Shown: positions 46,413-54,036, counted from the first letter of the stretch. The stretch: 64,000 nucleotides of DNA from a virus (IMGVR_UViG_3300042893_001849); one strand, 5' to 3'. Translations and numbers: made by a program. The notes: a model not told the origin generated them from the sequence alone.

Positions 46413-46643
46413 ATGACACAATCAAATGAGATGGTAAACCATCCAAATCACTATGGAGGTGAGGATAACACATACGAAGTAATAAAAGTATGTGAGGCTT
46501 GGGAATTAGATAAAGACGCTTACTTATTCAACGTAGTTAAGTATGTTGCAAGAGCAGGTAAGAAAGACCAAGCAAAAGAATTAGAAGACCTTAAGAAGGC
46601 ATCTTTCTATTTAAATCGTAAAATTAAAAACTTAGAGAAATGA
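46413..46643 (+). CDS. DUF3310-family phage protein.
   Basis: VNHPNHYGG...EVIKVCEAWELD...FNVVKYVARAGKK...EDLKKASFYL matches the DUF3310 pattern (HPSHY, W.L, IKYI.RAG.K, EDL.KA.WYL). Confidence 0.55.
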   Translation: MTQSNEMVNHPNHYGGEDNTYEVIKVCEAWELDKDAYLFNVVKYVARAGKKDQAKELEDLKKASFYLNRKIKNLEK

Positions 46644-47077
46644 TTTATTGGTTAACAGGACAACCTGGTGCGGGTAAAACAACTTTGGGAAATTGGCTCA
46701 TCGCAGCATTACAAGGAGAAGCAGTATTGGTTGACGGTGATGACATTAGAGAAATCTTTGAGAATAAAGATTACAGCGAACAAGGACGTAGAAAGAATAT
46801 TGAGTTAGCTCAAAATATTGCACACTTTCTAAATAATAAAAAAATGAACTCTGTTGTTTGTTTAGTGTCACCATACAGAGACCAAAGAGAAAACTTTAAA
46901 CAAAAAATGGGAAAAGATATTGTTGAGATTTATATTCACACCAGTGAAATTAGAGGGAGAGAATCATTTCACGTTGAGGGATACGAAAAACCGTTAGAAA
47001 ACTTTATTGATGTTGATACAACCAATAAAAAAGTTTATGATTCTCTTCAAGAAATCAGAGTCAAATTAAAAATATGA
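46640..47077 (+). CDS. P-loop kinase of the adenylylsulfate (APS) kinase family.
   Basis: IYWLTGQPGAGKTTLGNWL (Walker A), VDGDDIRE (the DGDNxR motif of APS kinases) and LVSPYRDQRE (SPYxxxR). Confidence 0.55.
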   Translation: MIYWLTGQPGAGKTTLGNWLIAALQGEAVLVDGDDIREIFENKDYSEQGRRKNIELAQNIAHFLNNKKMNSVVCLVSPYRDQRENFKQKMGKDIVEIYIHTSEIRGRESFHVEGYEKPLENFIDVDTTNKKVYDSLQEIRVKLKI

Positions 47078-47299
47078 TGAAGGTAAGCATCAGATATAAC
47101 ACTAAAGCAATATCTAACGAAGATTTACATTGGAGAGTAATCATTGATGGAGTTGAACATTTGGCGTCTAATGTTATTATTAATTGTATGAGTTATACGA
47201 CTAAAGATATAATAGAAGGAGTTGGGGAAAAATGGCACATAACCTGTCAACCTAAACAAGTTCAATGGATGGAAAAAGAATGTATATTAATTTAATATT

Positions 47300-47701
47300 A
47301 TGGAAAAGATACACATAGAGGGAGACCCTAAATTAAAAAATAATCCTGGTAAACAATTCTCAATGTTTATCGGAAGATGGCAACCGTGGCACGATGGACA
47401 CAGATGGTTAATAGACCAAAGACTTGAACAAGGTAAGAATGTTTTAATCTGTATTAGAGACATTGAACCTAATGAACAGAATCCATTCACAGCACAAGAG
47501 GTTCAAGAGAATATTACGGTTAAGTTATTAGATTTAATTCGTGAGGAAAGAGTTATTGTGATGGTAATACCTGATGTTGAGTCGGTAAACTTTGGAAGAG
47601 GAGTTGGTTATGATATCATAGAACATTTACCACCACAAGAAGTTAGTGAAATATCGGCAACTAAAATTAGGGAACAATTAAAACAAGAAGGTAAATTATA
47701 A
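47300..47701 (+). CDS. Cytidylyltransferase-superfamily nucleotidyltransferase (HxGH; NMNAT/TagD-like).
   Basis: FIGRWQPWHDGH (GxFxPxHxGH) and a C-terminal ISATKIRE (the ISxTxIR motif of TagD/NMNAT). Confidence 0.55.
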   Translation: MEKIHIEGDPKLKNNPGKQFSMFIGRWQPWHDGHRWLIDQRLEQGKNVLICIRDIEPNEQNPFTAQEVQENITVKLLDLIREERVIVMVIPDVESVNFGRGVGYDIIEHLPPQEVSEISATKIREQLKQEGKL

Positions 47702-48549
47702 TGTTAGAAACAAATAAAATAATCCAAGGAAATTGTGTTAACGTAATGGCGAATCTTCCTGAGTCATGTGTCGACTTGATAGTAACGTCACCACCATACA
47801 ATGTAGGAATTGATTATGATAGTTATGATGACAAACAATCAATGGAGGACTATTGGCAGTTTACAAAAGATTGGTTGTCTGAGTCTTACAGACTTCTTAA
47901 AGATGACGGAAGAATTGCGGTAAACATTCCATACGAAGTAAACGTACAAGATAGAGGTGGGAGAATATTGTTTATGTCTGAGTTTTATCAAATCATGAAA
48001 AATCTTGGATTTAAATTCTATGGACTTGTGGACCTTGACGAGAACTCACCACATAGAAGTAAGACTACCGCATGGGGTTCATGGATGAGCCCATCAAGTC
48101 CTTATATCTATAATCCAAAAGAATGTGTAATCTTGGCTTATAAGAAAGACCGTATTAAAAAAGTTAAGGGTGAACCACAATGGAAAGGAGAGTTGGTTGA
48201 TTTAGAACAAGAAGATGGTACAATCAAACAGAAGATGGTATACCAAGAAGAAGATAAGAAAGAGTTTATGAGTTTGGTATATGGTCAATGGGAATACTTT
48301 GCGGACACCAAACAACAAACTAAAGCCACTTTTTCAATGGATATTCCAATGAATGCAATTAAGATTCTTACATATAAAAATGATATTGTTCTTGACCCTT
48401 TTACAGGTAGTGGAACTAGTTTAGTCGCAGCCGAAGTTAGTGGAAGACGATGGTTAGGGATAGAGTTAAGTGAGAATTATACTAAAGTGGCTAAAGAAAG
48501 AGTTCAACACTTTATAGATAAGAATCGACAAATGGGATTAGGTTTATAA
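47701..48549 (+). CDS. DNA methyltransferase (N6-adenine or N4-cytosine; DPPY type).
   Basis: DLIVTSPPYN catalytic motif near the N-terminus and DPFTGSGTS SAM-binding motif near the C-terminus. Confidence 0.8.
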   Translation: MLETNKIIQGNCVNVMANLPESCVDLIVTSPPYNVGIDYDSYDDKQSMEDYWQFTKDWLSESYRLLKDDGRIAVNIPYEVNVQDRGGRILFMSEFYQIMKNLGFKFYGLVDLDENSPHRSKTTAWGSWMSPSSPYIYNPKECVILAYKKDRIKKVKGEPQWKGELVDLEQEDGTIKQKMVYQEEDKKEFMSLVYGQWEYFADTKQQTKATFSMDIPMNAIKILTYKNDIVLDPFTGSGTSLVAAEVSGRRWLGIELSENYTKVAKERVQHFIDKNRQMGLGL

Positions 48550-48551
48550 TA

Positions 48552-48577
48552 AAAGGGTCATACGACCCTTTTTTTAG
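48552..48577 (+). terminator. Rho-independent terminator.
   Basis: AAAGGGTCATACGACCCTTT hairpin followed by T6. Confidence 0.6.
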
Positions 48578-48607
48578 TTATATGGATATTTATAAATAAA
48601 AGTATAC

Positions 48608-49675
48608 ATGGCTCAATTCGTATTTACAGAAGACCAACTATTAGTAATCAAAAAAAGTATCATTGTTGAAAAAAAATATGAGAAAAAAGATTTGATTAAT
48701 GAGGCGTGGTATAATACCGTAATGGACGTGTTAGGTATTATTGACCCAACACCAATAATCGACATCATTAATGCAACATCATACTTTATTCAAGGGGACA
48801 CTCTTTTTGGAGTTTTAACAATTGTTTCAGCAATACCATATGCTGGAGATATTGTTGCAAAACCTGTTTTGGGGGCACTAAAAATTGGAGGACCATCTGT
48901 CAAAGCTTTGGAGTCTGCAATAAAACTTTCTAAAGGAGCCGCTGTAGGTAGTAAAGAATATAAAGCCGCGGCAGCAACCATAGAAAAATTAGCAAAAGAA
49001 CCAGGTGTTATAGGAGGTTTTCTAAAGAAAATGGGTGGTTCTTTTGGAGATAAAGTTATTAAAACAATAGACGAAATTCCTGCAGGACCATTCAAAGGAA
49101 TGAAAAATACTATCAAAAGTTATTTCGAATTATTAAGTAACGCTGGTAAGAAAAGTGCTATGTTCCAAAAAAGAGCTGGAGTTCTTGCAAAGAACTTCCA
49201 AAAAGGAACTGCAGCTGTCAAAGATGTTGAGCTTTTAAAAAATTATCTTAAAACTCAAAAAGTATTTAATCCCGCCACTCTTAGTAAGCCAGGGTTCTTT
49301 ACAAATGTATTTTTTGGCGGAATTCCAAGACTATTTAGAAGTCCAGCTCAAAGAAGATTAAGAATTTTAATGCAATCTACAAAATGGTGGTTAGGATTTC
49401 TTGATTACGTTGGTTTAGGTAATTGGGTAGGTGCTGAAGAATTGGCTAAAAAAATGGGAGATGAAAATTTCACGAAAAAAGTTGATGAATATAATCAAAC
49501 ACCTGAGGCCAAACAAAACTTTGAAGACCAATTTGGTTCAGAAAGAACGGAAGGTCAAACAGATAATCAACAAAGTACGTCTTCATCCACAAATTCGGAA
49601 CCAAATCTTGACCCATTAGCTAAATTCTTAAGAAATATGTTTATGGGACAAGCGAATCCAATCCCTGGAATTTAA
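48608..49675 (+). CDS. Hypothetical protein.
   Basis: 355 aa, Gly/Ala/Lys-rich. Confidence 0.4.
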   Translation: MAQFVFTEDQLLVIKKSIIVEKKYEKKDLINEAWYNTVMDVLGIIDPTPIIDIINATSYFIQGDTLFGVLTIVSAIPYAGDIVAKPVLGALKIGGPSVKALESAIKLSKGAAVGSKEYKAAAATIEKLAKEPGVIGGFLKKMGGSFGDKVIKTIDEIPAGPFKGMKNTIKSYFELLSNAGKKSAMFQKRAGVLAKNFQKGTAAVKDVELLKNYLKTQKVFNPATLSKPGFFTNVFFGGIPRLFRSPAQRRLRILMQSTKWWLGFLDYVGLGNWVGAEELAKKMGDENFTKKVDEYNQTPEAKQNFEDQFGSERTEGQTDNQQSTSSSTNSEPNLDPLAKFLRNMFMGQANPIPGI

Positions 49676-49695
49676 ATTAAATTAAATAATATAAA

Positions 49696-50055
49696 ATGGC
49701 AAAGAAAATTATAAGACTAACTGAAGCTGATTTAACAAGATTGGTTAAAAGAGTTATTAAAGAACAAAATCAAATGAGTGGAGAAGAGGTATTTGAACTT
49801 CAAAACGCGCTAAATGATTATTTTGAATTAAAGAACATTAATAAAAAAATTGCAACTGATGCAAAATGGGGACCAACAACTATAGATGCCCTTAAGATGT
49901 TTCAAAAGGCTGAAGGTATTAATCCTGATGGTATTGCAGGACCTGACACTTATAGTAAATTACGTAGTTTAGGGTTAAACCAAGATGCTATTGATTCTAT
50001 TTTTTCAGGATTAAAAAAAGCTGCCTCTTGGATTGCTAAAAAAATAGTAGGATAA
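49696..50055 (+). CDS. Protein with a peptidoglycan-binding domain (PG_binding_1).
   Basis: WGPTTIDALKMFQKAEGINPDGIAGPDTYSKL. Confidence 0.6.
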   Translation: MAKKIIRLTEADLTRLVKRVIKEQNQMSGEEVFELQNALNDYFELKNINKKIATDAKWGPTTIDALKMFQKAEGINPDGIAGPDTYSKLRSLGLNQDAIDSIFSGLKKAASWIAKKIVG

Positions 50056-50057
50056 TA

Positions 50058-51470
50058 ATGAAAAGAATTATAACAGAAACAGGATTAAGAAATATCAATG
50101 CTTTAAAAGATAGATATCAAAAAGCTGAGATATATTTTCACCAAGACCTTGATGGAGTAACAACAGCAATTGCAATGAAAAAATACCTTGAAGATAATGG
50201 TATTGATGTTGTAGGGGCTCATATCATTCAATATGGTGACAAAGAGTTTGCTGTTAAAAAGAACGACGCTCAAGGTGATATAATGCCAGTGTTGGTGGAT
50301 TTTGCTCATGGTAAGCCTATGTTTGTTATTCATACGGACCACCATGATAGACAAGTAGGTGTTGAAAAAGGTACCTCCAAACAATTTAGAGGTGCTCGTT
50401 CTAATGTTGAGACGATATCTCAAGTGGTATCACCAAAAGACTTATTTCCCTCAGCTGATATATTATTAATTAATACTGTGGATTCGGCAGATTATGCAAA
50501 ATACAATATTACACCAACAGAAGTTGTTAATTATATCTATAAAGTAGATAAAGATAGTTCACTTCAAAAGAACAAAATGTTATTAGGTTTAGTTATTAAT
50601 AAACTACTTTTAGCATTTAAAAATAAGCCAGGGTTTTTAGAAAGTTTAGTTATGGACTGTGAGCCATCATTACTTTCAATTTTAAATAAAATTAAGGATT
50701 GGATGAAAAGAACCAATTCAGCAAACCCCGAAGAACTACAACAAAATGCACAAGATTATGCCGAAAAAATGAAGGGATACCCCAAGGTATCTGATAACAT
50801 TATCTTCCAATATGGTGGGGGTAGTATGTTTAAACCTGGGTCTTACGACAGATATACACCATTCAGAAATAATCCTGACGCAGACTTTCTCATCATGGCG
50901 TGGCCGATGGGACTTGTTCAAGCTTCTTGTAATCCATTTAAGAAAGAAAGAGAACTTAAAGGAGTTAATCTCGGTGAGATTGCCCAAGAAGTTATAGGTA
51001 AATGGGAGGGTCAGTTAAAACAAAGAAGTATTCCATTATCTACAATGAAATGGGTGAGTGAAACAAGTGCAGGTCCTGAAAGTGTTGGATTTACATTCAA
51101 AGACTTTGATGCTCTTTACGGTGGTAAATTTATGTTTATGGATGGAGGAGAAAAGATGTTAGGTAGAATTGAGGAAATGATGGAGAAGCCATTCAGTGAA
51201 TTATCTGAAGAAGAAATCTCATTGATGGACAAAATCGGAATCAATGCTTGGGACCTTATCCAATCCAACTCGGGTGGGCACAAATGTATTACTAATATCT
51301 CAGGGCTTAATTATTTAGGTAGGGGTAAAAGACCACCACAAGGCAAATATAAATATGATTCCGAGAAAGATGATTCACCTTCAGTTAAGTTCACTAAGAT
51401 GATTGCAGCTGAATTCCAAAATGTACTTAAACAAAAGATTGCGGAGTCTAAATCATCTTCAGAGGATTAG
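50058..51470 (+). CDS. DHH-family phosphoesterase (NrnA/RecJ-like).
   Basis: HQDLDGVTTAIAM (motif I), VLVDFAHG (II), VIHTDHHD (III, DHH) and SNSGGHK (IV, GGGH-like) in the canonical order. Confidence 0.5.
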   Translation: MKRIITETGLRNINALKDRYQKAEIYFHQDLDGVTTAIAMKKYLEDNGIDVVGAHIIQYGDKEFAVKKNDAQGDIMPVLVDFAHGKPMFVIHTDHHDRQVGVEKGTSKQFRGARSNVETISQVVSPKDLFPSADILLINTVDSADYAKYNITPTEVVNYIYKVDKDSSLQKNKMLLGLVINKLLLAFKNKPGFLESLVMDCEPSLLSILNKIKDWMKRTNSANPEELQQNAQDYAEKMKGYPKVSDNIIFQYGGGSMFKPGSYDRYTPFRNNPDADFLIMAWPMGLVQASCNPFKKERELKGVNLGEIAQEVIGKWEGQLKQRSIPLSTMKWVSETSAGPESVGFTFKDFDALYGGKFMFMDGGEKMLGRIEEMMEKPFSELSEEEISLMDKIGINAWDLIQSNSGGHKCITNISGLNYLGRGKRPPQGKYKYDSEKDDSPSVKFTKMIAAEFQNVLKQKIAESKSSSED

Positions 51471-51820
51471 TACAGGTCGTACTCTACAGAATCGCCAGGT
51501 AAAATATTAAGGTCTTCACAAGAACCACCTTCAATTTCCAAAACTATATTACCATTTCCACAATAGGATGGGCAATCAAATTCATCATGACATGGAGGAC
51601 AATTACTATGTATATTAACGATTACATTATTTTTAATGATTAGAATATCCAATGGTATAATACAATTTTTCATCCAAAAACATTGTTTCTTTCCATCCAT
51701 AAGAAATAACAATCCATTAAATGAGTCGTCAAAAGTTTTTCCCATCATACCAATAGATTGAGATTTTTTATCTATTAAAGTTTTGACATTAAAAATATTT
51801 TCATTAATTTTGACCTTCAT
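51467..51820 (-). CDS. Cys-rich hypothetical protein.
   Basis: CPPCHDEFDCPSYCGNGN. Confidence 0.35.
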   Translation of the reverse strand: MKVKINENIFNVKTLIDKKSQSIGMMGKTFDDSFNGLLFLMDGKKQCFWMKNCIIPLDILIIKNNVIVNIHSNCPPCHDEFDCPSYCGNGNIVLEIEGGSCEDLNILPGDSVEYDLY

Positions 51821-51834
51821 ACTTAATAAATACT

Positions 51835-52257
51835 ATGGAAAACAAAAGACACGTCGGTGTGATGGTAAAATGTGGGGACAAAATTCTTCTATGTAAGAGA
51901 AACAGCCAAGGTTCAAACCCTGGTATGTGGTCAATCCCTGGTGGTAAAATGGAAGATAATGGGGAAACACCTCAAGAAGGAGCAAAGAGAGAGTTTTTAG
52001 AAGAGACTGATGTAAATATTAATGACAAAGAACTTCAGTTCATTGGGCTTATTCCAAGACATACCAGAGATGGTAAGAAAGTTAAAGGAATAATGTATGT
52101 GTATTTATTAGAAGTAGAGGAACCAATCATTCCTGATTTGGTTAATGCTATTGACGGTGAAGAACACACTGACTCTGGATACTTTACTTTAGATGAAATT
52201 AAACCTGAGACTTCGGGAGATTACTTCCACAGACTCGCAGAAATTATATTAAAATGA
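51835..52257 (+). CDS. NUDIX hydrolase.
   Basis: GGKMEDNGETPQEGAKREFLEETDV Nudix box. Confidence 0.8.
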   Translation: MENKRHVGVMVKCGDKILLCKRNSQGSNPGMWSIPGGKMEDNGETPQEGAKREFLEETDVNINDKELQFIGLIPRHTRDGKKVKGIMYVYLLEVEEPIIPDLVNAIDGEEHTDSGYFTLDEIKPETSGDYFHRLAEIILK

Positions 52258-52650: not shown

Positions 52651-52722
52651 CGCGAGGTAGAGCAGTGGTAGCTCGGAAGGCTCATAACCTTTAGGTCGGT
52701 GGTTCGAATCCATCCTTCGCAA
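52651..52722 (+). tRNA. tRNA-Met (anticodon CAT), initiator-like.
   Basis: Hand-folded cloverleaf: acceptor CGCGAGG/CTTCGCA with a C1:A72 mismatch, D arm GAGC-AGTGGTA-GCTC, anticodon arm GAAGG-CTCATAA-CCTTT, and T arm GGTGG-TTCGAAT-CCATC. No CCA is encoded. Confidence 0.7.
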
Positions 52723-52754
52723 CAAAAAATAGTTTAACTATTTTTCATAAAGAA

Positions 52755-52786
52755 TTTGATTAATTGAAAAGTTATTCATATCTTTG
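52755..52786 (+). promoter_or_regulatory. Bacteroidota-type promoter (TTTG, 20 nt spacer, TATCTTTG).
   Basis: TTTG at 52755-52758 and TATCTTTG at 52779-52786. No ORF downstream. Confidence 0.5.
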
Positions 52787-52792
52787 TAAAAC

Positions 52793-52985
52793 AATTGGGA
52801 GAGGTTGACCGTAGGTTCGTAAAATCGAGGTTCCCTACCCAAAACAAACTTTCAGGTAAAACTGATTGTTTCTTTGACAAACAGACGAATTAGCCCGTCC
52901 TATTGAGAGTAGGGGGTCAACAAGATAGTTAGATGATACTATCAAGGAAGAATGAATTCGTTAAAATCATCAGTCAAAAAAAAGT
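52793..52985 (+). ncRNA. Candidate structured non-coding RNA (about 190 nt).
   Basis: GC-enriched relative to the flanks, with mutually complementary segments (GGGAGAGGTTGACC...GGGGGTCAAC; CCCTACCC...GAGTAGGGGG). No ORF. Lies between two promoters. Confidence 0.35.
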
Positions 52986-52995
52986 TTTATAAAAA

Positions 52996-53027
52996 TTTGA
53001 TTGTTTCCCAAAACATTCTTATCTTTG
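52996..53027 (+). promoter_or_regulatory. Bacteroidota-type promoter (TTTG, 20 nt spacer, TATCTTTG).
   Basis: TTTG at 52996-52999 and TATCTTTG at 53020-53027. Confidence 0.5.
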
Positions 53028-53032
53028 TAAAA

Positions 53033-54036
53033 CAAATGAAGGAGAGGGGTTGTAAATGTTCCTACTTCGGTGGGTCGTAAAGATTCCTTTCTCCTTCATT
53101 AATTTTGAATACGTTCTTTGAATATAAAATATTTTCTTGAAACATGTTGATGATGAGACCTTCGGGTTGATTCTGAGATAGAAATAAAGAAATTGGGCGG
53201 TCTATAGTCCATAAAATAAACCATGAAAGTGGTATAAAGTGACTTGTTCTTGATTGGAACGGTTGCGGCTTTGGTAACGGAGCTCGAGTAGACAAACGAG
53301 ATATTATTTGACCTTGAGTATTGAGGGTAACACTTTAGGGAAAGTGGTCGAATAATCAAGCGATGTGGGTCGTTTGGTTGAGGAGGGAACTCCGATAAGA
53401 ATAACTCGTAGAACTGTTGTGAGAAGTATGGTTATCCGACTATATAATTGCGGGGTTCAATATTAGAGTAGACTTAAAACCGAAAGGTAAGAGTTCGTAC
53501 AGGTGGTGCTGTTGTTCTCCTTACTCTTCACCTACCAAGGTAGGAGTTATGAAGTAGACTTGAAATATGGAGGTCGGGAGACTTCAAGGTGTAGTTCAGT
53601 ATTGTCTCGTTCAAAAGATGGGACAGCTGGTTTGACGGACCGCTACATCTATCATCCACAAATCAAACTTTTACTTTCAATGGTGAAAACTAAAAACTAA
53701 AAGGAAAAGTGTTCGTCAGTCGTGGTAGACAGGTCACTACTTAGTCATGAGTTGTTCATGGCCGTAAAGGGTCCCAAACCCGATACGATTGTTTTGAAAG
53801 TTCTCTAATCCCGCAAGGATGAGTTTGGGTGGCAACCTAGAAGAGTGATGAGTAAGAATAGAGTATATTACGACTTAAGGATTGGTTAATCTAATTGACC
53901 GTGACTGAGAGGTACTTCTCAAAAGGAAGTGGAAATCGGAGGAATCAAAATAATCTCCTGTAAAGTCTCTCATTGAAAGGTGTATTCTCAACCTGAATGC
54001 CAAACTAACCCTGACGTTTCTACGTCGGGGTTTTTT
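53033..54036 (+). ncRNA. Candidate large structured non-coding RNA (about 1 kb), class unknown.
   Basis: About 1 kb without a credible ORF in an otherwise gene-dense genome, and GC-enriched. Begins with an 11-bp stem (AATGAAGGAGA/TCTCCTTCATT) that encloses a UUCG-type tetraloop hairpin. More C(UUCG)G and GAAA-loop hairpins follow. The GAGTAGAC motif recurs at 53285, 53465 and 53552. The region ends at a strong terminator. Confidence 0.4.
54008..54036 (+). terminator. Rho-independent terminator.
   Basis: CCCTGACG-TTTCTA-CGTCGGGG hairpin followed by T6. Confidence 0.65.

What the first reader, a model, noticed from the sequence alone, without database searches (positions are those of the whole stretch)
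46413..52257. Cluster of nucleotide-metabolising enzymes (DUF3310, APS-kinase-like P-loop kinase, HxGH nucleotidyltransferase, DHH phosphoesterase, NUDIX) next to the RNA island: candidate cofactor-salvage or anti-signalling module
Within about 6 kb the phage encodes five such proteins:

- a DUF3310 protein, a family that frequently accompanies phage nucleotide kinases;
- a kinase with the diagnostic APS-kinase motifs (Walker A, DGDDIR, SPYxxxR);
- a 133-aa cytidylyltransferase-fold enzyme with the GxxxPxHxGH and ISxTKIR motifs shared by NMN adenylyltransferases and TagD;
- a 470-aa DHH/DHHA1 phosphoesterase with motifs I-IV in order; its family includes NrnA, a pAp phosphatase and oligoribonuclease, and cyclic-dinucleotide phosphodiesterases;
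- a NUDIX hydrolase.

An NMNAT paired with a Nudix is reminiscent of the phage NadM-Nudix NAD salvage arrangement. DHH and NUDIX enzymes are also plausible degraders of nucleotide second messengers used by abortive-infection systems. The APS-kinase/pAp-phosphatase pairing further hints at PAPS chemistry. The cluster's function is not evident from sequence and could be a new counter-defence or modification pathway.
Basis: partly seen in the sequence, partly recalled or inferred. Interest (0 to 1): 0.65.

Follow-up and report, generated by a model that had tools for sequence, protein, structure and literature searches.

The report
Phage sulfate-activation cassette among unrelated accessory genes
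The five "nucleotide enzymes" are real but are not one pathway: only the kinase and the small nucleotidyltransferase belong together, as a mobile two-gene cassette that in other phages sits next to sulfotransferases and so most likely makes the sulfate donor PAPS, not NAD or an anti-signalling activity.

Summary
All five domain calls are correct at the stated coordinates: DUF3310, APS-kinase-like kinase, HxGH nucleotidyltransferase (NT), DHH/DHHA1 phosphoesterase and NUDIX.

They do not form one module.
- The stretch has at least three transcription blocks. A strong terminator follows the DNA methylase, and one gene lies on the opposite strand.
- Among 76 related phage loci, kinase and NT are both present in 48, both absent in 28, and never alone. 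That needs at least 8 gain/loss events. DHH and DUF3310 stay either way; NUDIX varies on its own.

The kinase and NT are fused into one ~250-aa protein in thousands of environmental phage sequences and in phages Salvo and DLP_6. They lie as overlapping genes in SAR11 and SAR86 genomes.
- In 16 of 79 phage loci holding the fusion, a sulfotransferase lies 0-2.8 kb upstream.
- Of 80 sulfotransferase loci, about 55 have this kinase close by, most of them abutting, with or without the NT.

My reading: the kinase is an APS kinase. The NT, whose nearest known relatives are archaeal NMN adenylyltransferases, supplies APS as a minimal ATP sulfurylase (inferred).

The DHH protein is a separate matter. 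Its near relatives are fused to cell-wall-binding and lytic domains.

No sulfotransferase and no Nampt is in the window.

The parts
46413..46643 (+). DUF3310 protein (76 aa). First gene of the operon. Not part of the kinase-NT cassette.
   Evidence: Pfam DUF3310 E 1.2e-15. Its stop overlaps the kinase start (ATGA). It is present in lineage loci with or without the cassette, and abuts the methylase where the cassette is absent.
46640..47077 (+). APS-kinase-like P-loop kinase (145 aa). Cassette gene 1. Proposed reaction: APS to PAPS.
   Evidence: Pfam APS_kinase E 4e-17. PDB APS kinases 2e-12. Below NCBIfam equivalog cut-offs. Matches the N-terminal half of phrog_10255. Relatives abut sulfotransferases.
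47074..47295 (+). 73-aa ORF of unknown function that travels with the cassette.
   Evidence: No family hit. Homologs lie immediately downstream of the kinase-NT fusion in 5 distant phage loci and in 14 lineage loci, where it mostly lies after the NT rather than between kinase and NT.
47300..47701 (+). Minimal HIGH-motif nucleotidyltransferase (133 aa). Cassette gene 2. Proposed reaction: ATP + sulfate to APS.
47701..48549 (+). N6/N4 DNA methyltransferase. Last gene of the operon and right flank of the cassette slot.
   Evidence: Pfam N6_N4_Mtase E 3e-36. PADLOC type II MTase E 5e-53. Present in 79 of 80 lineage loci.
48551..48572 (+). Intrinsic terminator that closes the DUF3310-kinase-orf73-NT-methylase unit.
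   Evidence: 9-bp stem, 4-nt loop, T-run. Sequence read.
48608..49675 (+). 355-aa protein of unknown function. First gene of the DHH unit.
   Evidence: No hit in Pfam, PHROGs, NCBIfam or PADLOC. Found in 59 of 80 lineage loci.
49696..50055 (+). Peptidoglycan-binding protein (119 aa), ending 2 nt before the DHH gene starts.
   Evidence: Pfam PG_binding_1 E 1.8e-13. The same domain is fused C-terminally to the DHH domain in the closest 50%-cluster representatives.
50058..51470 (+). Divergent DHH/DHHA1 phosphoesterase (470 aa). Substrate unknown.
   Evidence: Invariant catalytic motifs in 55 homologs. Sub-threshold Pfam DHH in 54 of 55. Best PDB sequence hit is PggH, E 0.034. Foldseek returned DHH-family structures at all of the top 38 ranks, including a PAP phosphatase, PggH and RecJ. 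The AlphaFold model is poor, pLDDT 47.
51467..51820 (-). DUF192 protein on the opposite strand, convergent with the DHH gene.
   Evidence: Pfam DUF192 E 7e-19.
51835..52257 (+). Generic MutT-like NUDIX hydrolase (140 aa). An independently variable accessory gene.
   Evidence: Pfam NUDIX E 5e-19. PDB hits are mixed MutT, RppH-like and Ap4A hydrolases. Present or absent in the lineage independently of its flanks.

Best explanation
The 5.8-kb stretch is a run of independently exchangeable accessory genes in a jumbo phage (relatives lie on 146-326 kb contigs). It is not one pathway.

The one functional unit is the kinase plus the 133-aa nucleotidyltransferase (NT), with a 73-aa hanger-on. This cassette sits in a hypervariable slot between DUF3310 and a DNA methylase.

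Proposed mechanism, a two-step sulfate activation:
1. The NT transfers AMP from ATP to sulfate, giving APS. This step is inferred.
2. The trimmed APS kinase phosphorylates the 3'-OH of APS, giving PAPS. This rests on family membership and on gene context in relatives.

The domain order in the fused forms is the same as in animal PAPS synthase (kinase N-terminal, adenylyltransferase C-terminal; from knowledge of that enzyme). PAPS would feed a sulfotransferase. In many other phages one is encoded right next to the pair. In this phage it must be encoded elsewhere or be a host enzyme.

The DHH phosphoesterase is co-transcribed with a peptidoglycan-binding protein, not with the kinase. The NUDIX hydrolase is a separate accessory gene. 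The substrates of both are unknown.
For: Kinase and NT are coupled.
- Both halves map to one PHROG profile.
- They are one protein in Xylella phage Salvo gp32 and Stenotrophomonas phage DLP_6 AAY80_227.
- All of the best 120 of 6915 database hits are such fusions.
- In the window's own lineage, 48 loci have both, 0 have one and 28 have neither (Fisher p 2e-21). That needs at least 8 changes on a methylase tree.
- In the window the genes overlap at ATGA and TAATG junctions and end at a terminator.

The kinase is an APS kinase.
- APS_kinase is the top Pfam family, above the cut-off, for the window protein and for every relative tested.
- The window kinase keeps Walker A, DGDxxR and SPY, and a YS-x3-GR-x2-N stretch where APS kinases have GFS-x2-DR-xEN (alignment).
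- Kinase-only relatives carry the canonical NKDLGFSxxDR.

Link to sulfation.
- A sulfotransferase (Sulfotransfer_3, E 2e-17) lies 0-2.8 kb upstream in 16 of 79 fusion loci and never further out in the 10-kb flanks.
- These sulfotransferases are diverse: median 30% identity, 10 clusters at 70%.
- Reciprocally, of 80 sulfotransferase loci, 29 have kinase plus NT (27 abutting the sulfotransferase, 2 lying 2-4 kb downstream). About 26 more have the kinase alone.

The NT as the APS source.
- It is an adenylyltransferase-fold protein about 35-50 residues shorter than archaeal NMNAT.
- SAR11 and SAR86 genomes carry the pair as overlapping genes.
- SAR11 is reported to have an APS kinase and aprBA but no sat, except in one strain (PMC3448164).

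Not one module.
- DHH 0 of 80, DUF3310 0 of 80 and NUDIX 2 of 80 in fusion loci.
- Terminator after the methylase.
Against: - No sulfotransferase, DUF2061 or other PAPS user was found in the 64-kb window or in 20 kb of its closest relatives.
- By sequence and by fold the NT is nearest to NMN adenylyltransferases, not to ATP sulfurylase. It lacks the QxRN motif. Its Pfam ATP-sulfurylase score (14 bits) is below the cut-off (24).
- Kinase-only phages show that the NT is dispensable next to a sulfotransferase, so it could have another job.
- Only about a quarter of fusion loci show a sulfotransferase.
- The SAR11 neighbourhood has no sulfotransferase.
- Many loci are closely related, so the counts overstate independent events.
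- No biochemistry exists for any member.
Confidence: 0.5

Rival explanations
1. NAD+ salvage or reconstitution. The NT is an NMN/NaMN adenylyltransferase and the kinase phosphorylates nicotinamide riboside, as in NadR. The NUDIX trims NAD/ADP-ribose. Together they boost NAD or counter NAD-depleting defences.
For: - The best sequence, profile and fold matches of the NT are archaeal NMNAT and NadM. GRxQPxHxGH, NPF and IxATxxR are shared with them.
- Jumbo phages are known to carry HIGH-NTase-Nudix and HIGH-NTase-P-loop-kinase NAD genes (PMC7824862).
- NUDIX presence correlates loosely with the cassette in the lineage (27/7 against 7/11).
Against: - No Nampt/NAPRTase is in the window or among the common neighbours of the fusion.
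- The kinase is APS-kinase-like, not NadR-RNK-like.
- The match to NMNAT stops after about 77 positions, and the scores are 34-41 bits against cut-offs of 127-181.
- This reading does not explain the repeated adjacency to sulfotransferases.
- The NUDIX lies in another transcription unit and is absent from distant fusion loci.
Confidence: 0.17
2. Anti-signalling. The DHH phosphoesterase, and perhaps the NUDIX, degrade nucleotide second messengers of CBASS, type III CRISPR or Thoeris (cyclic oligonucleotides, their linear products, ADPR derivatives). They act independently of the kinase-NT cassette.
For: - The DHH catalytic motifs are intact and conserved.
- The family includes c-di-AMP, pApA and pGpG phosphodiesterases and a cOA-degrading nuclease. 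The best PDB sequence hit is PggH; GdpP and DhhP appear among the fold hits.
- DHH phosphodiesterases in jumbo phages have been proposed as counter-signalling enzymes (PMC7824862).
- Fusion of close relatives to SAM lyase and to lytic domains is compatible with an injected early-acting protein.
Against: - The evidence is family membership only.
- There is no hit to any known anti-defence family and none in PHROGs or PADLOC.
- The structural model is too poor to judge the pocket.
- The fusion and adjacency to peptidoglycan-binding and hydrolase domains has no precedent among signal-degrading enzymes.
- The NUDIX is a generic MutT-like protein.
Confidence: 0.2
3. PAPS cycle including the DHH. 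The DHH protein is the 3'-phosphoadenosine-5'-phosphate (pAp) phosphatase that clears the by-product of sulfotransfer, so kinase, NT and DHH form one sulfation support pathway.
For: - NrnA-type DHH enzymes are pAp phosphatases (established knowledge).
- A DHH-family PAP phosphatase (8A8K) is among the top fold hits.
- The genes lie about 3 kb apart.
Against: - DHH is present in all 28 lineage loci that lack the cassette.
- It is absent from all 80 distant fusion loci and was not among the gene families recurrent next to the fusion, where the sulfotransferases lie. The 80 sulfotransferase-anchored loci were not searched for DHH.
- It is in a separate transcription unit.
- The ranking from a model of pLDDT 47 is not reliable.
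Confidence: 0.1

Closest known systems
Bifunctional PAPS synthase (animal PAPSS1/2; bacterial and fungal Sat-CysC fusions such as Aquifex 2GKS)
   Same: - An APS-kinase domain is joined to, or translationally coupled with, an HxxH-type adenylyltransferase-fold domain.
- In the fused phage proteins the kinase is N-terminal, as in PAPSS.
- The genes lie next to sulfotransferases in many phages.
   Different: - The transferase part is 113-133 aa and NMNAT-like. It is not the ~390-aa Sat with its PUA-like domain and QxRNPxHxxH / GRDHAG motifs.
- The kinase is trimmed to 135-145 aa.
- The whole unit is about 250 aa, against 570-630 aa.
- No activity has been shown.
Archaeal NMN adenylyltransferase / NadM (TIGR01527; PDB 1F9A, 1EJ2, 2QJT)
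   Same: - GRxQPxHxGH, NPF and the S/A-T-x-I-R motifs.
- 28-34% identity over the first ~80 residues.
   Different: - About 35-50 residues shorter; the profile match covers only the first ~77 of 113 positions, and the segment between the fourth strand and the final motif is 23 residues.
- Carries a family-specific invariant GRxVGY.
- Never fused to Nudix, and never seen with Nampt.
- Always paired with an APS-kinase-like protein.
NadR and the jumbo-phage HIGH-NTase-P-loop-kinase proteins (Iyer et al. 2021, PMC7824862)
   Same: A HIGH nucleotidyltransferase coupled to a P-loop kinase in one protein or operon, in large phages.
   Different: - The domain order is reversed.
- The kinase belongs to the APS_kinase family, not to AAA_28/RNK.
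- NadR is only a weak match (E 8e-4).
NrnA / PggH / DHH-type PAP phosphatase (DHH-DHHA1 phosphoesterases)
   Same: - DHH motifs I-IV and the GGH of DHHA1 are invariant.
- Fold hits are restricted to this family.
   Different: - 470 aa, with long insertions.
- Below the Pfam and PDB sequence thresholds.
- Relatives are fused to PG_binding_1, GH19, Peptidase_M23, SAM-lyase and SET domains.
Viral 'cysC' and 'nadM' auxiliary metabolic genes listed in viromics surveys (PMC8066274, PMC12713726)
   Same: These are probably the same genes, counted separately under sulfur and cofactor metabolism, and unvalidated.
   Different: Here the two are shown to be one co-inherited, often fused, unit tied to sulfotransferases.

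Membership tests
APS kinase (CysC; PF01583, TIGR00455) | Walker A P-loop, DGDxxR, and the (V/I)SP(Y/F) motif | tested here: met
   GQPGAGKTT, VDGDDIR and VSPYRDQRE read in the sequence. Aligned to APS kinases 7YQ0 and 8A8H.
APS kinase (CysC; PF01583, TIGR00455) | Score above the curated family cut-offs | tested here: inconclusive
   The Pfam cut-off is met (63.1 against 21.1 bits). The NCBIfam equivalog and subfamily cut-offs are not met (64-68 against 127-139 bits).
APS kinase (CysC; PF01583, TIGR00455) | Genomic association with sulfate-activation or sulfotransfer genes | tested here: inconclusive
   Met for relatives: sulfotransferase adjacent in 16 of 79 fusion loci, and this kinase close by in about 55 of 80 sulfotransferase loci. 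Not met in the window itself.
APS kinase (CysC; PF01583, TIGR00455) | Phosphorylates the 3'-OH of APS | not testable with these tools
   Needs an enzyme assay.
ATP sulfurylase (Sat; PF01747) | QxRNPxHxxH and GRDHAG motifs; family score above the cut-off | tested here: not met
   The NT has GRWQPWHDGH and FGRGVGY. Pfam ATP-sulfurylase gives E 0.026, 14.3 bits against 24.3. There are weak hits in 9 of 21 members, best 0.0027. It is therefore not filed as a Sat family member; only the activity is proposed.
ATP sulfurylase (Sat; PF01747) | HIGH-superfamily fold, coupled to an APS kinase | tested here: met
Archaeal NMNAT / NadM (TIGR01527, PRK01153) | GRxQPxHxGH, NPF and SxTxxR motifs | tested here: met
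   Invariant in the alignments of 39 (NT region) and 21 (NT domains only) family members.
Archaeal NMNAT / NadM (TIGR01527, PRK01153) | Full-length match, including the region after the fourth strand, at the family cut-off | tested here: not met
   34.3 against 181.2 bits, and 40.6 against 127. PDB profile matches cover positions 5-77 of 113 only. The protein is 133 aa against 168-181 aa.
Phage NAD reconstitution (Nampt + NadM-Nudix) | Nampt/NAPRTase present; NMNAT fused to or beside Nudix | tested here: not met
   No NAPRTase family among 64 window ORFs. NT and NUDIX are 4 kb apart in different transcription units. Nudix was found in 2 of 80 fusion loci.
DHH/DHHA1 phosphoesterases (PF01368 / PF02272) | Motifs I (DxD), II (D), III (DHH), IV (D) and the DHHA1 GGGH | tested here: met
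   D30/D32, D81, D94-H96, D142 and G406-G407-H408 are invariant in 55 sequences.
DHH/DHHA1 phosphoesterases (PF01368 / PF02272) | Family score above the cut-off; DHH fold | tested here: inconclusive
   Pfam 20.6 against 28.1 bits. 54 of 55 homologs are sub-threshold, best E 8e-7. No DHHA1 hit. Foldseek returns DHH-family structures at all of the top 38 ranks, but from a model of pLDDT 47.
NUDIX hydrolases (PF00293) | Nudix box GX5EX7REUXEEXGU | tested here: met
   Pfam E 5e-19. The box reads GGKMEDNGETPQEGAKREFLEETDV, with one extra residue before the first E and D in place of the last G. No specific subfamily reaches its cut-off.
DUF3310 (PF11753) | Full-length match to the 60-position profile | tested here: met
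   57.7 bits against a cut-off of 24, positions 1-60 of 60.

The most novel reading that the evidence does not exclude
The 113-133-aa NMNAT-like nucleotidyltransferase is an unrecognised, minimal type of ATP sulfurylase, distinct from both Sat and CysDN. Joined to a trimmed APS kinase, it would form the smallest known PAPS synthase (~250 aa). Phages would use it to feed their own sulfotransferases, sulfating host or virion glycans. SAR11 and SAR86 would use it as the 'missing' sulfate-activating enzyme.
Probability: 0.35. Interest if true: 0.8.

Novelty: new variant of a known kind. Interest (0 to 1): 0.55.

Why it matters
- Annotation. Viromics surveys count 'cysC' and 'nadM' as separate auxiliary metabolic genes for sulfur assimilation and for NAD. 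If they are one fused or co-inherited sulfate-activation unit linked to sulfotransferases, both annotations and the ecological conclusions drawn from them need revising.
- Phage biology. Phage-driven sulfation of cell-surface or virion glycans would be a largely unexplored kind of phage-host interaction.
- Marine microbiology. SAR11 is reported to have an APS kinase and aprBA but no sat. A neighbouring non-canonical sulfurylase would change how its sulfur metabolism is read.
- Enzymology. A ~250-aa PAPS synthase would be useful for enzymatic PAPS regeneration.
- Method. For this window the result is a caution: nucleotide-enzyme domains lying side by side in a jumbo-phage accessory region are not evidence of a pathway.

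Tried and rejected
- AlphaFold model of the DHH protein. Only homologs of at least 82% identity could be supplied, so the model was poor (pLDDT 47). It was used only to confirm the fold family.
- Direct PDB sequence search with the DHH protein: nothing. A profile of 55 homologs gave only PggH at E 0.034.
- Sulfotransferase or DUF2061 in the window and in close relatives, searched with HMMs built from phage examples and with a motif scan: none.
- NAD-salvage partners (Nampt/NAPRTase) in the window: none.
- PurZ idea. An adenylosuccinate-synthetase-like gene lies within about 5 kb of the fusion in the three fusion loci fetched by protein look-up (L009-L011; abutting in L011). A homolog was found in only 2 of 80 loci of the wider set, so the idea was dropped.
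- 2OG-Fe(II) oxygenase between kinase and NT in some relatives. It turned out to be one of several alternative inserts.
- PADLOC scan: only the methylase, a weak mad8 P-loop hit and a generic Nudix match.
- Literature. No paper was found on the kinase-NT fusion, and none of the six papers that mention DUF2061 deals with APS kinase or sulfur activation, judged from titles and abstracts only.
- Nucleotide search against isolated phages: no close relative.
- Whole-genome check. I could not read the rest of the ~280-326 kb genomes of this lineage, so whether they encode a sulfotransferase remains open.

Full report
**What is there.** The window has about 33% G+C and reads like a large phage. Its closest relatives lie on contigs of 146-326 kb.

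Between 46413 and 52257 there are ten ORFs. Pfam assigns them as follows:
- DUF3310, E 1.2e-15
- APS_kinase, E 4e-17
- no family for a 73-aa ORF
- CTP_transf_like, E 1.8e-5
- N6_N4 DNA methylase, E 3e-36
- no family for a 355-aa ORF
- PG_binding_1, E 1.8e-13
- DHH, E 5.6e-4, which is below the cut-off
- DUF192 on the minus strand, E 7e-19
- NUDIX, E 5e-19

To the right lie tRNA-Met and a GOLLD RNA. The DHH call needed extra work, given below.

**Transcription units.** DUF3310, kinase, orf73, NT and methylase are packed head to tail. The stop and start codons overlap (ATGA at 46640 and at 47074, TAATG at 47701), and the run ends at a clean hairpin plus T-run at 48551-48572. The 355-aa gene, the PG-binding gene and the DHH gene form the next block. 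DUF192 converges on that block from the other strand. NUDIX follows on its own. The five enzymes are thus spread over at least three units.

**The kinase and the NT are one unit.**
- Both map to a single PHROG profile (phrog_10255, 230 positions). The kinase matches positions 2-89 and the NT positions 134-228.
- tblastn found them as one gene in Xylella phage Salvo (gp32), in Sano, Bacata and other Xanthomonas and Stenotrophomonas phages, and in the 168-kb phage DLP_6.
- A search with the DLP_6 protein returned 6915 hits. The best 120 are all fusions of 243-290 aa.
- Aligned, the fusions show invariant GLPGxGK, D-x2-R, DWDF, R-x-RQ, FV-x-P, and then G-R-x-QP-x-H-x-GH, NP, YGRDVGY and I-x-AT-x-IR. 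The window NT aligns with the C-terminal half and shares those NT residues, except that the D of GRDVGY is G.
- Among 76 loci of the window's own lineage that contain both flanking genes, 48 carry kinase and NT, none carries only one, and 28 carry neither. In most of those 28, DUF3310 then abuts the methylase.
- On a tree of the methylase this pattern needs at least eight changes.
- The slot can also hold a 2OG-Fe(II) oxygenase, or an FkbM methylase plus another P-loop protein.

The pair is therefore a mobile cassette in a hypervariable slot. DUF3310, DHH and NUDIX do not depend on it.

**What the cassette does: evidence from context.** I fetched 79 viral loci around fusion genes and clustered their neighbours. 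The most frequent neighbours are:
- a DUF2061 two-helix membrane protein, in 18 loci, mostly immediately downstream;
- a sulfotransferase (Sulfotransfer_3, E 2e-17; Sulfotransfer_1, E 1.6e-11), in 16 loci. It is always 0-2.8 kb upstream and never further out, although the flanks reach 10 kb.

The sulfotransferases are very diverse, with a median identity of 30%.

The reverse search gave the same link. Of 80 viral sulfotransferase loci, 29 have kinase plus NT: 27 abut the sulfotransferase and two lie 2-4 kb downstream (one of them a split NT next to a kinase-DUF2061 fusion). About 26 more have the kinase alone, and the rest have neither. The kinase-only genes carry the canonical APS-kinase motif NKDLGFSxxDR, together with the clade-specific DFVCPT and RFxDTNKLF motifs. 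APS_kinase is the top Pfam family for all of them. Other recurrent neighbours are a second cytidylyltransferase, an NAD-dependent epimerase, FkbM methylases and radical SAM enzymes. These are mostly the kinds of gene found in glycan-modification clusters (that reading is mine).

Homologs of the window's 73-aa ORF lie right after the fusion in five distant loci.

By contrast, phmmer with the window's DHH, DUF3310, NUDIX and methylase found 0, 0, 2 and 1 of 80 loci.

**Mechanism.**
- Shown: the kinase belongs to the APS-kinase family and sits beside sulfotransferases in many unrelated phages. The NT is obligatorily coupled to it.
- Inferred: the kinase makes PAPS from APS. The NT supplies APS from ATP and sulfate.

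The inference about the NT rests on five points:
1. The activity missing between sulfate and an APS kinase is an adenylyl transfer from ATP to a small anion.
3. It is 35-50 residues shorter than archaeal NMNAT, and the match to NMNAT ends after about 77 positions. From memory of the NMNAT structures, the missing part includes the helix that holds the nicotinamide ring. I could not test this here.
4. The fused proteins have the kinase N-terminal and the transferase C-terminal. From knowledge of the enzyme, animal PAPS synthase has the same order.
5. SAR11 and SAR86 genomes carry the pair as two overlapping chromosomal genes. Grote et al. 2012 report that SAR11 strains have an APS kinase and aprBA but, with one exception, no sat (PMC3448164).

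Points against:
- The NT's nearest relatives are NMNATs.
- It lacks the Sat motifs, and its Pfam ATP-sulfurylase score is below the cut-off.
- Kinase-only phages show that the NT is dispensable.
- Neither the window nor 20 kb of its nearest relatives contains a sulfotransferase.

I put about 0.7 on 'APS kinase', about 0.4-0.45 on 'NT is a sulfate adenylyltransferase', and about 0.8 on 'not a five-gene module'.

**The DHH protein.**
- Sequence searches of PDB, PHROGs, NCBIfam and PADLOC gave nothing.
- An exhaustive search of 50%-identity representatives found 368 relatives.
- In an alignment of 55 of them, down to 27% identity, the invariant columns include the DHH motifs I-IV and the DHHA1 GGH. 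R265, Y266 and N292 are also invariant.
- 54 of the 55 give sub-threshold Pfam DHH hits.
- The profile's best PDB match is the pGpG phosphodiesterase PggH, E 0.034.
- The AlphaFold model was poor (pLDDT 47). Even so, Foldseek returned DHH-family structures at all of the top 38 ranks: an uncharacterised H. pylori protein, a methanogen PAP phosphatase, RecJ/Cdc45, PggH, DhhP and GdpP.

It is therefore a real and probably active DHH/DHHA1 phosphoesterase of a very divergent branch.

Unexpectedly, the closest representatives (65% identity) carry C-terminal PG_binding_1 plus GH19, or Peptidase_M23. Others carry SAM-lyase/DUF3293, SET or Peptidase_S74 domains. In the window, a PG_binding_1 gene ends 2 nt before the DHH gene starts. 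This looks like the multi-domain proteins that phages carry in the virion, but I have no direct evidence for packaging. Nothing links the protein to the kinase-NT cassette, so the tidy idea that it is the pAp phosphatase of a PAPS cycle gets only about 0.1.

**The NUDIX and DUF3310 proteins.** The NUDIX protein matches MutT, RppH-like and Ap4A hydrolases about equally, and no subfamily reaches its cut-off. Inside the lineage it comes and goes on its own. It shows a loose positive association with the cassette (27/7 against 7/11), but relatedness is not controlled. DUF3310 is a constant gene at the left edge of the slot.

**Comparison with known systems.**
- The cassette works most like a PAPS synthase, but it is not a member of the Sat family: a defining feature was tested and not met.
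- Its NT is a divergent offshoot of the archaeal NMNAT/NadM family, but fails that family's full-length test.
- It differs from the NadR-like kinase-NTase proteins described in jumbo phages (PMC7824862) in domain order and in kinase family.
- Viromics papers list viral cysC and nadM as separate, unvalidated auxiliary genes (PMC8066274, PMC12713726).
- I found no paper that treats them as one unit.

**Verdict.** The interesting residue is a widespread, uncharacterised kinase-NT unit that is probably a miniature PAPS synthase. I rate this a new variant of a known kind, interest 0.55.

Noticed in passing
window 52651-54032: tRNA-Met (52651-52723) and a GOLLD RNA (Rfam 329 bits, 53587-53994), closed by a strong terminator at 54007-54032. 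The stretch 52724-53586 is unassigned and may be the variable 5' half of GOLLD.
   Followed up: partly
window 46643-47701; loci L092-L171, L001-L004: The gap between DUF3310 and the DNA methylase is a hypervariable insertion slot in this phage lineage. It can be empty, or hold kinase+NT, orf73, a 2OG-Fe(II) oxygenase, or an FkbM methylase plus another P-loop protein.
   Followed up: yes
window 47074-47295; L069, L075, L084, L085, L089: A 73-aa protein with no family travels with the kinase-NT unit in distant phages. Within the lineage its position differs (between kinase and NT, or after the NT). In one locus it is present without the cassette.
   Followed up: partly
P0361, P0362, P0368, P0431, P0439 (relatives of window 50058-51470): The DHH-like domain is fused to PG_binding_1+GH19, Peptidase_M23, or SAM-lyase/DUF3293. 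SET and Peptidase_S74 also occur among the 55 aligned relatives. This suggests a polyvalent, possibly virion-borne protein.
   Followed up: partly
L252-L276 (SAR11 and SAR86 genome contigs): Kinase and NT occur as two overlapping chromosomal genes in Pelagibacteraceae and SAR86. In SAR11 they lie amid GcvT/DmdA-like, MTHFR-like, enoyl-CoA hydratase, Rieske oxygenase and SBP56 (methanethiol-oxidase family) genes.
   Followed up: partly
L245:11514-12152, L246, L247: The APS-kinase-like domain is fused to a DUF2061 two-helix membrane domain. DUF2061 is also the commonest gene immediately downstream of the kinase-NT fusion (18 of 79 loci). Its function is unknown.
   Followed up: partly
L001/L002 14614-15153 and 10 of the loci L092-L171: Relatives carry a PduO-type cob(I)alamin adenosyltransferase (PF01923) between DHH and DUF192. 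It is absent from the window.
   Followed up: no
L011:6979-8004; L009, L010, L012, L015: A short adenylosuccinate-synthetase-like gene (329-341 aa, PurZ/PurA-like) lies next to or near the kinase-NT fusion in a few phages. In L011 it lies in the same locus as a GMP-reductase/IMPDH-family gene (about 6 kb away).
   Followed up: partly
window 1-64000: The window also encodes DnaJ, a sigma-70-type factor, AdoMet decarboxylase, thioredoxin/glutaredoxin, a pyrimidine-dimer glycosylase, two Dam-type methylases, a Band_7 protein and a SprB-repeat protein. The SprB repeat hints at a Bacteroidota host.
   Followed up: no
phage sulfotransferase ORFs in the fusion loci L012-L091 (four of the ten sequences printed): Several phage sulfotransferases carry extensions of about 330-370 aa C-terminal to the sulfotransferase domain. 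Pfam finds no domain in them.
   Followed up: no
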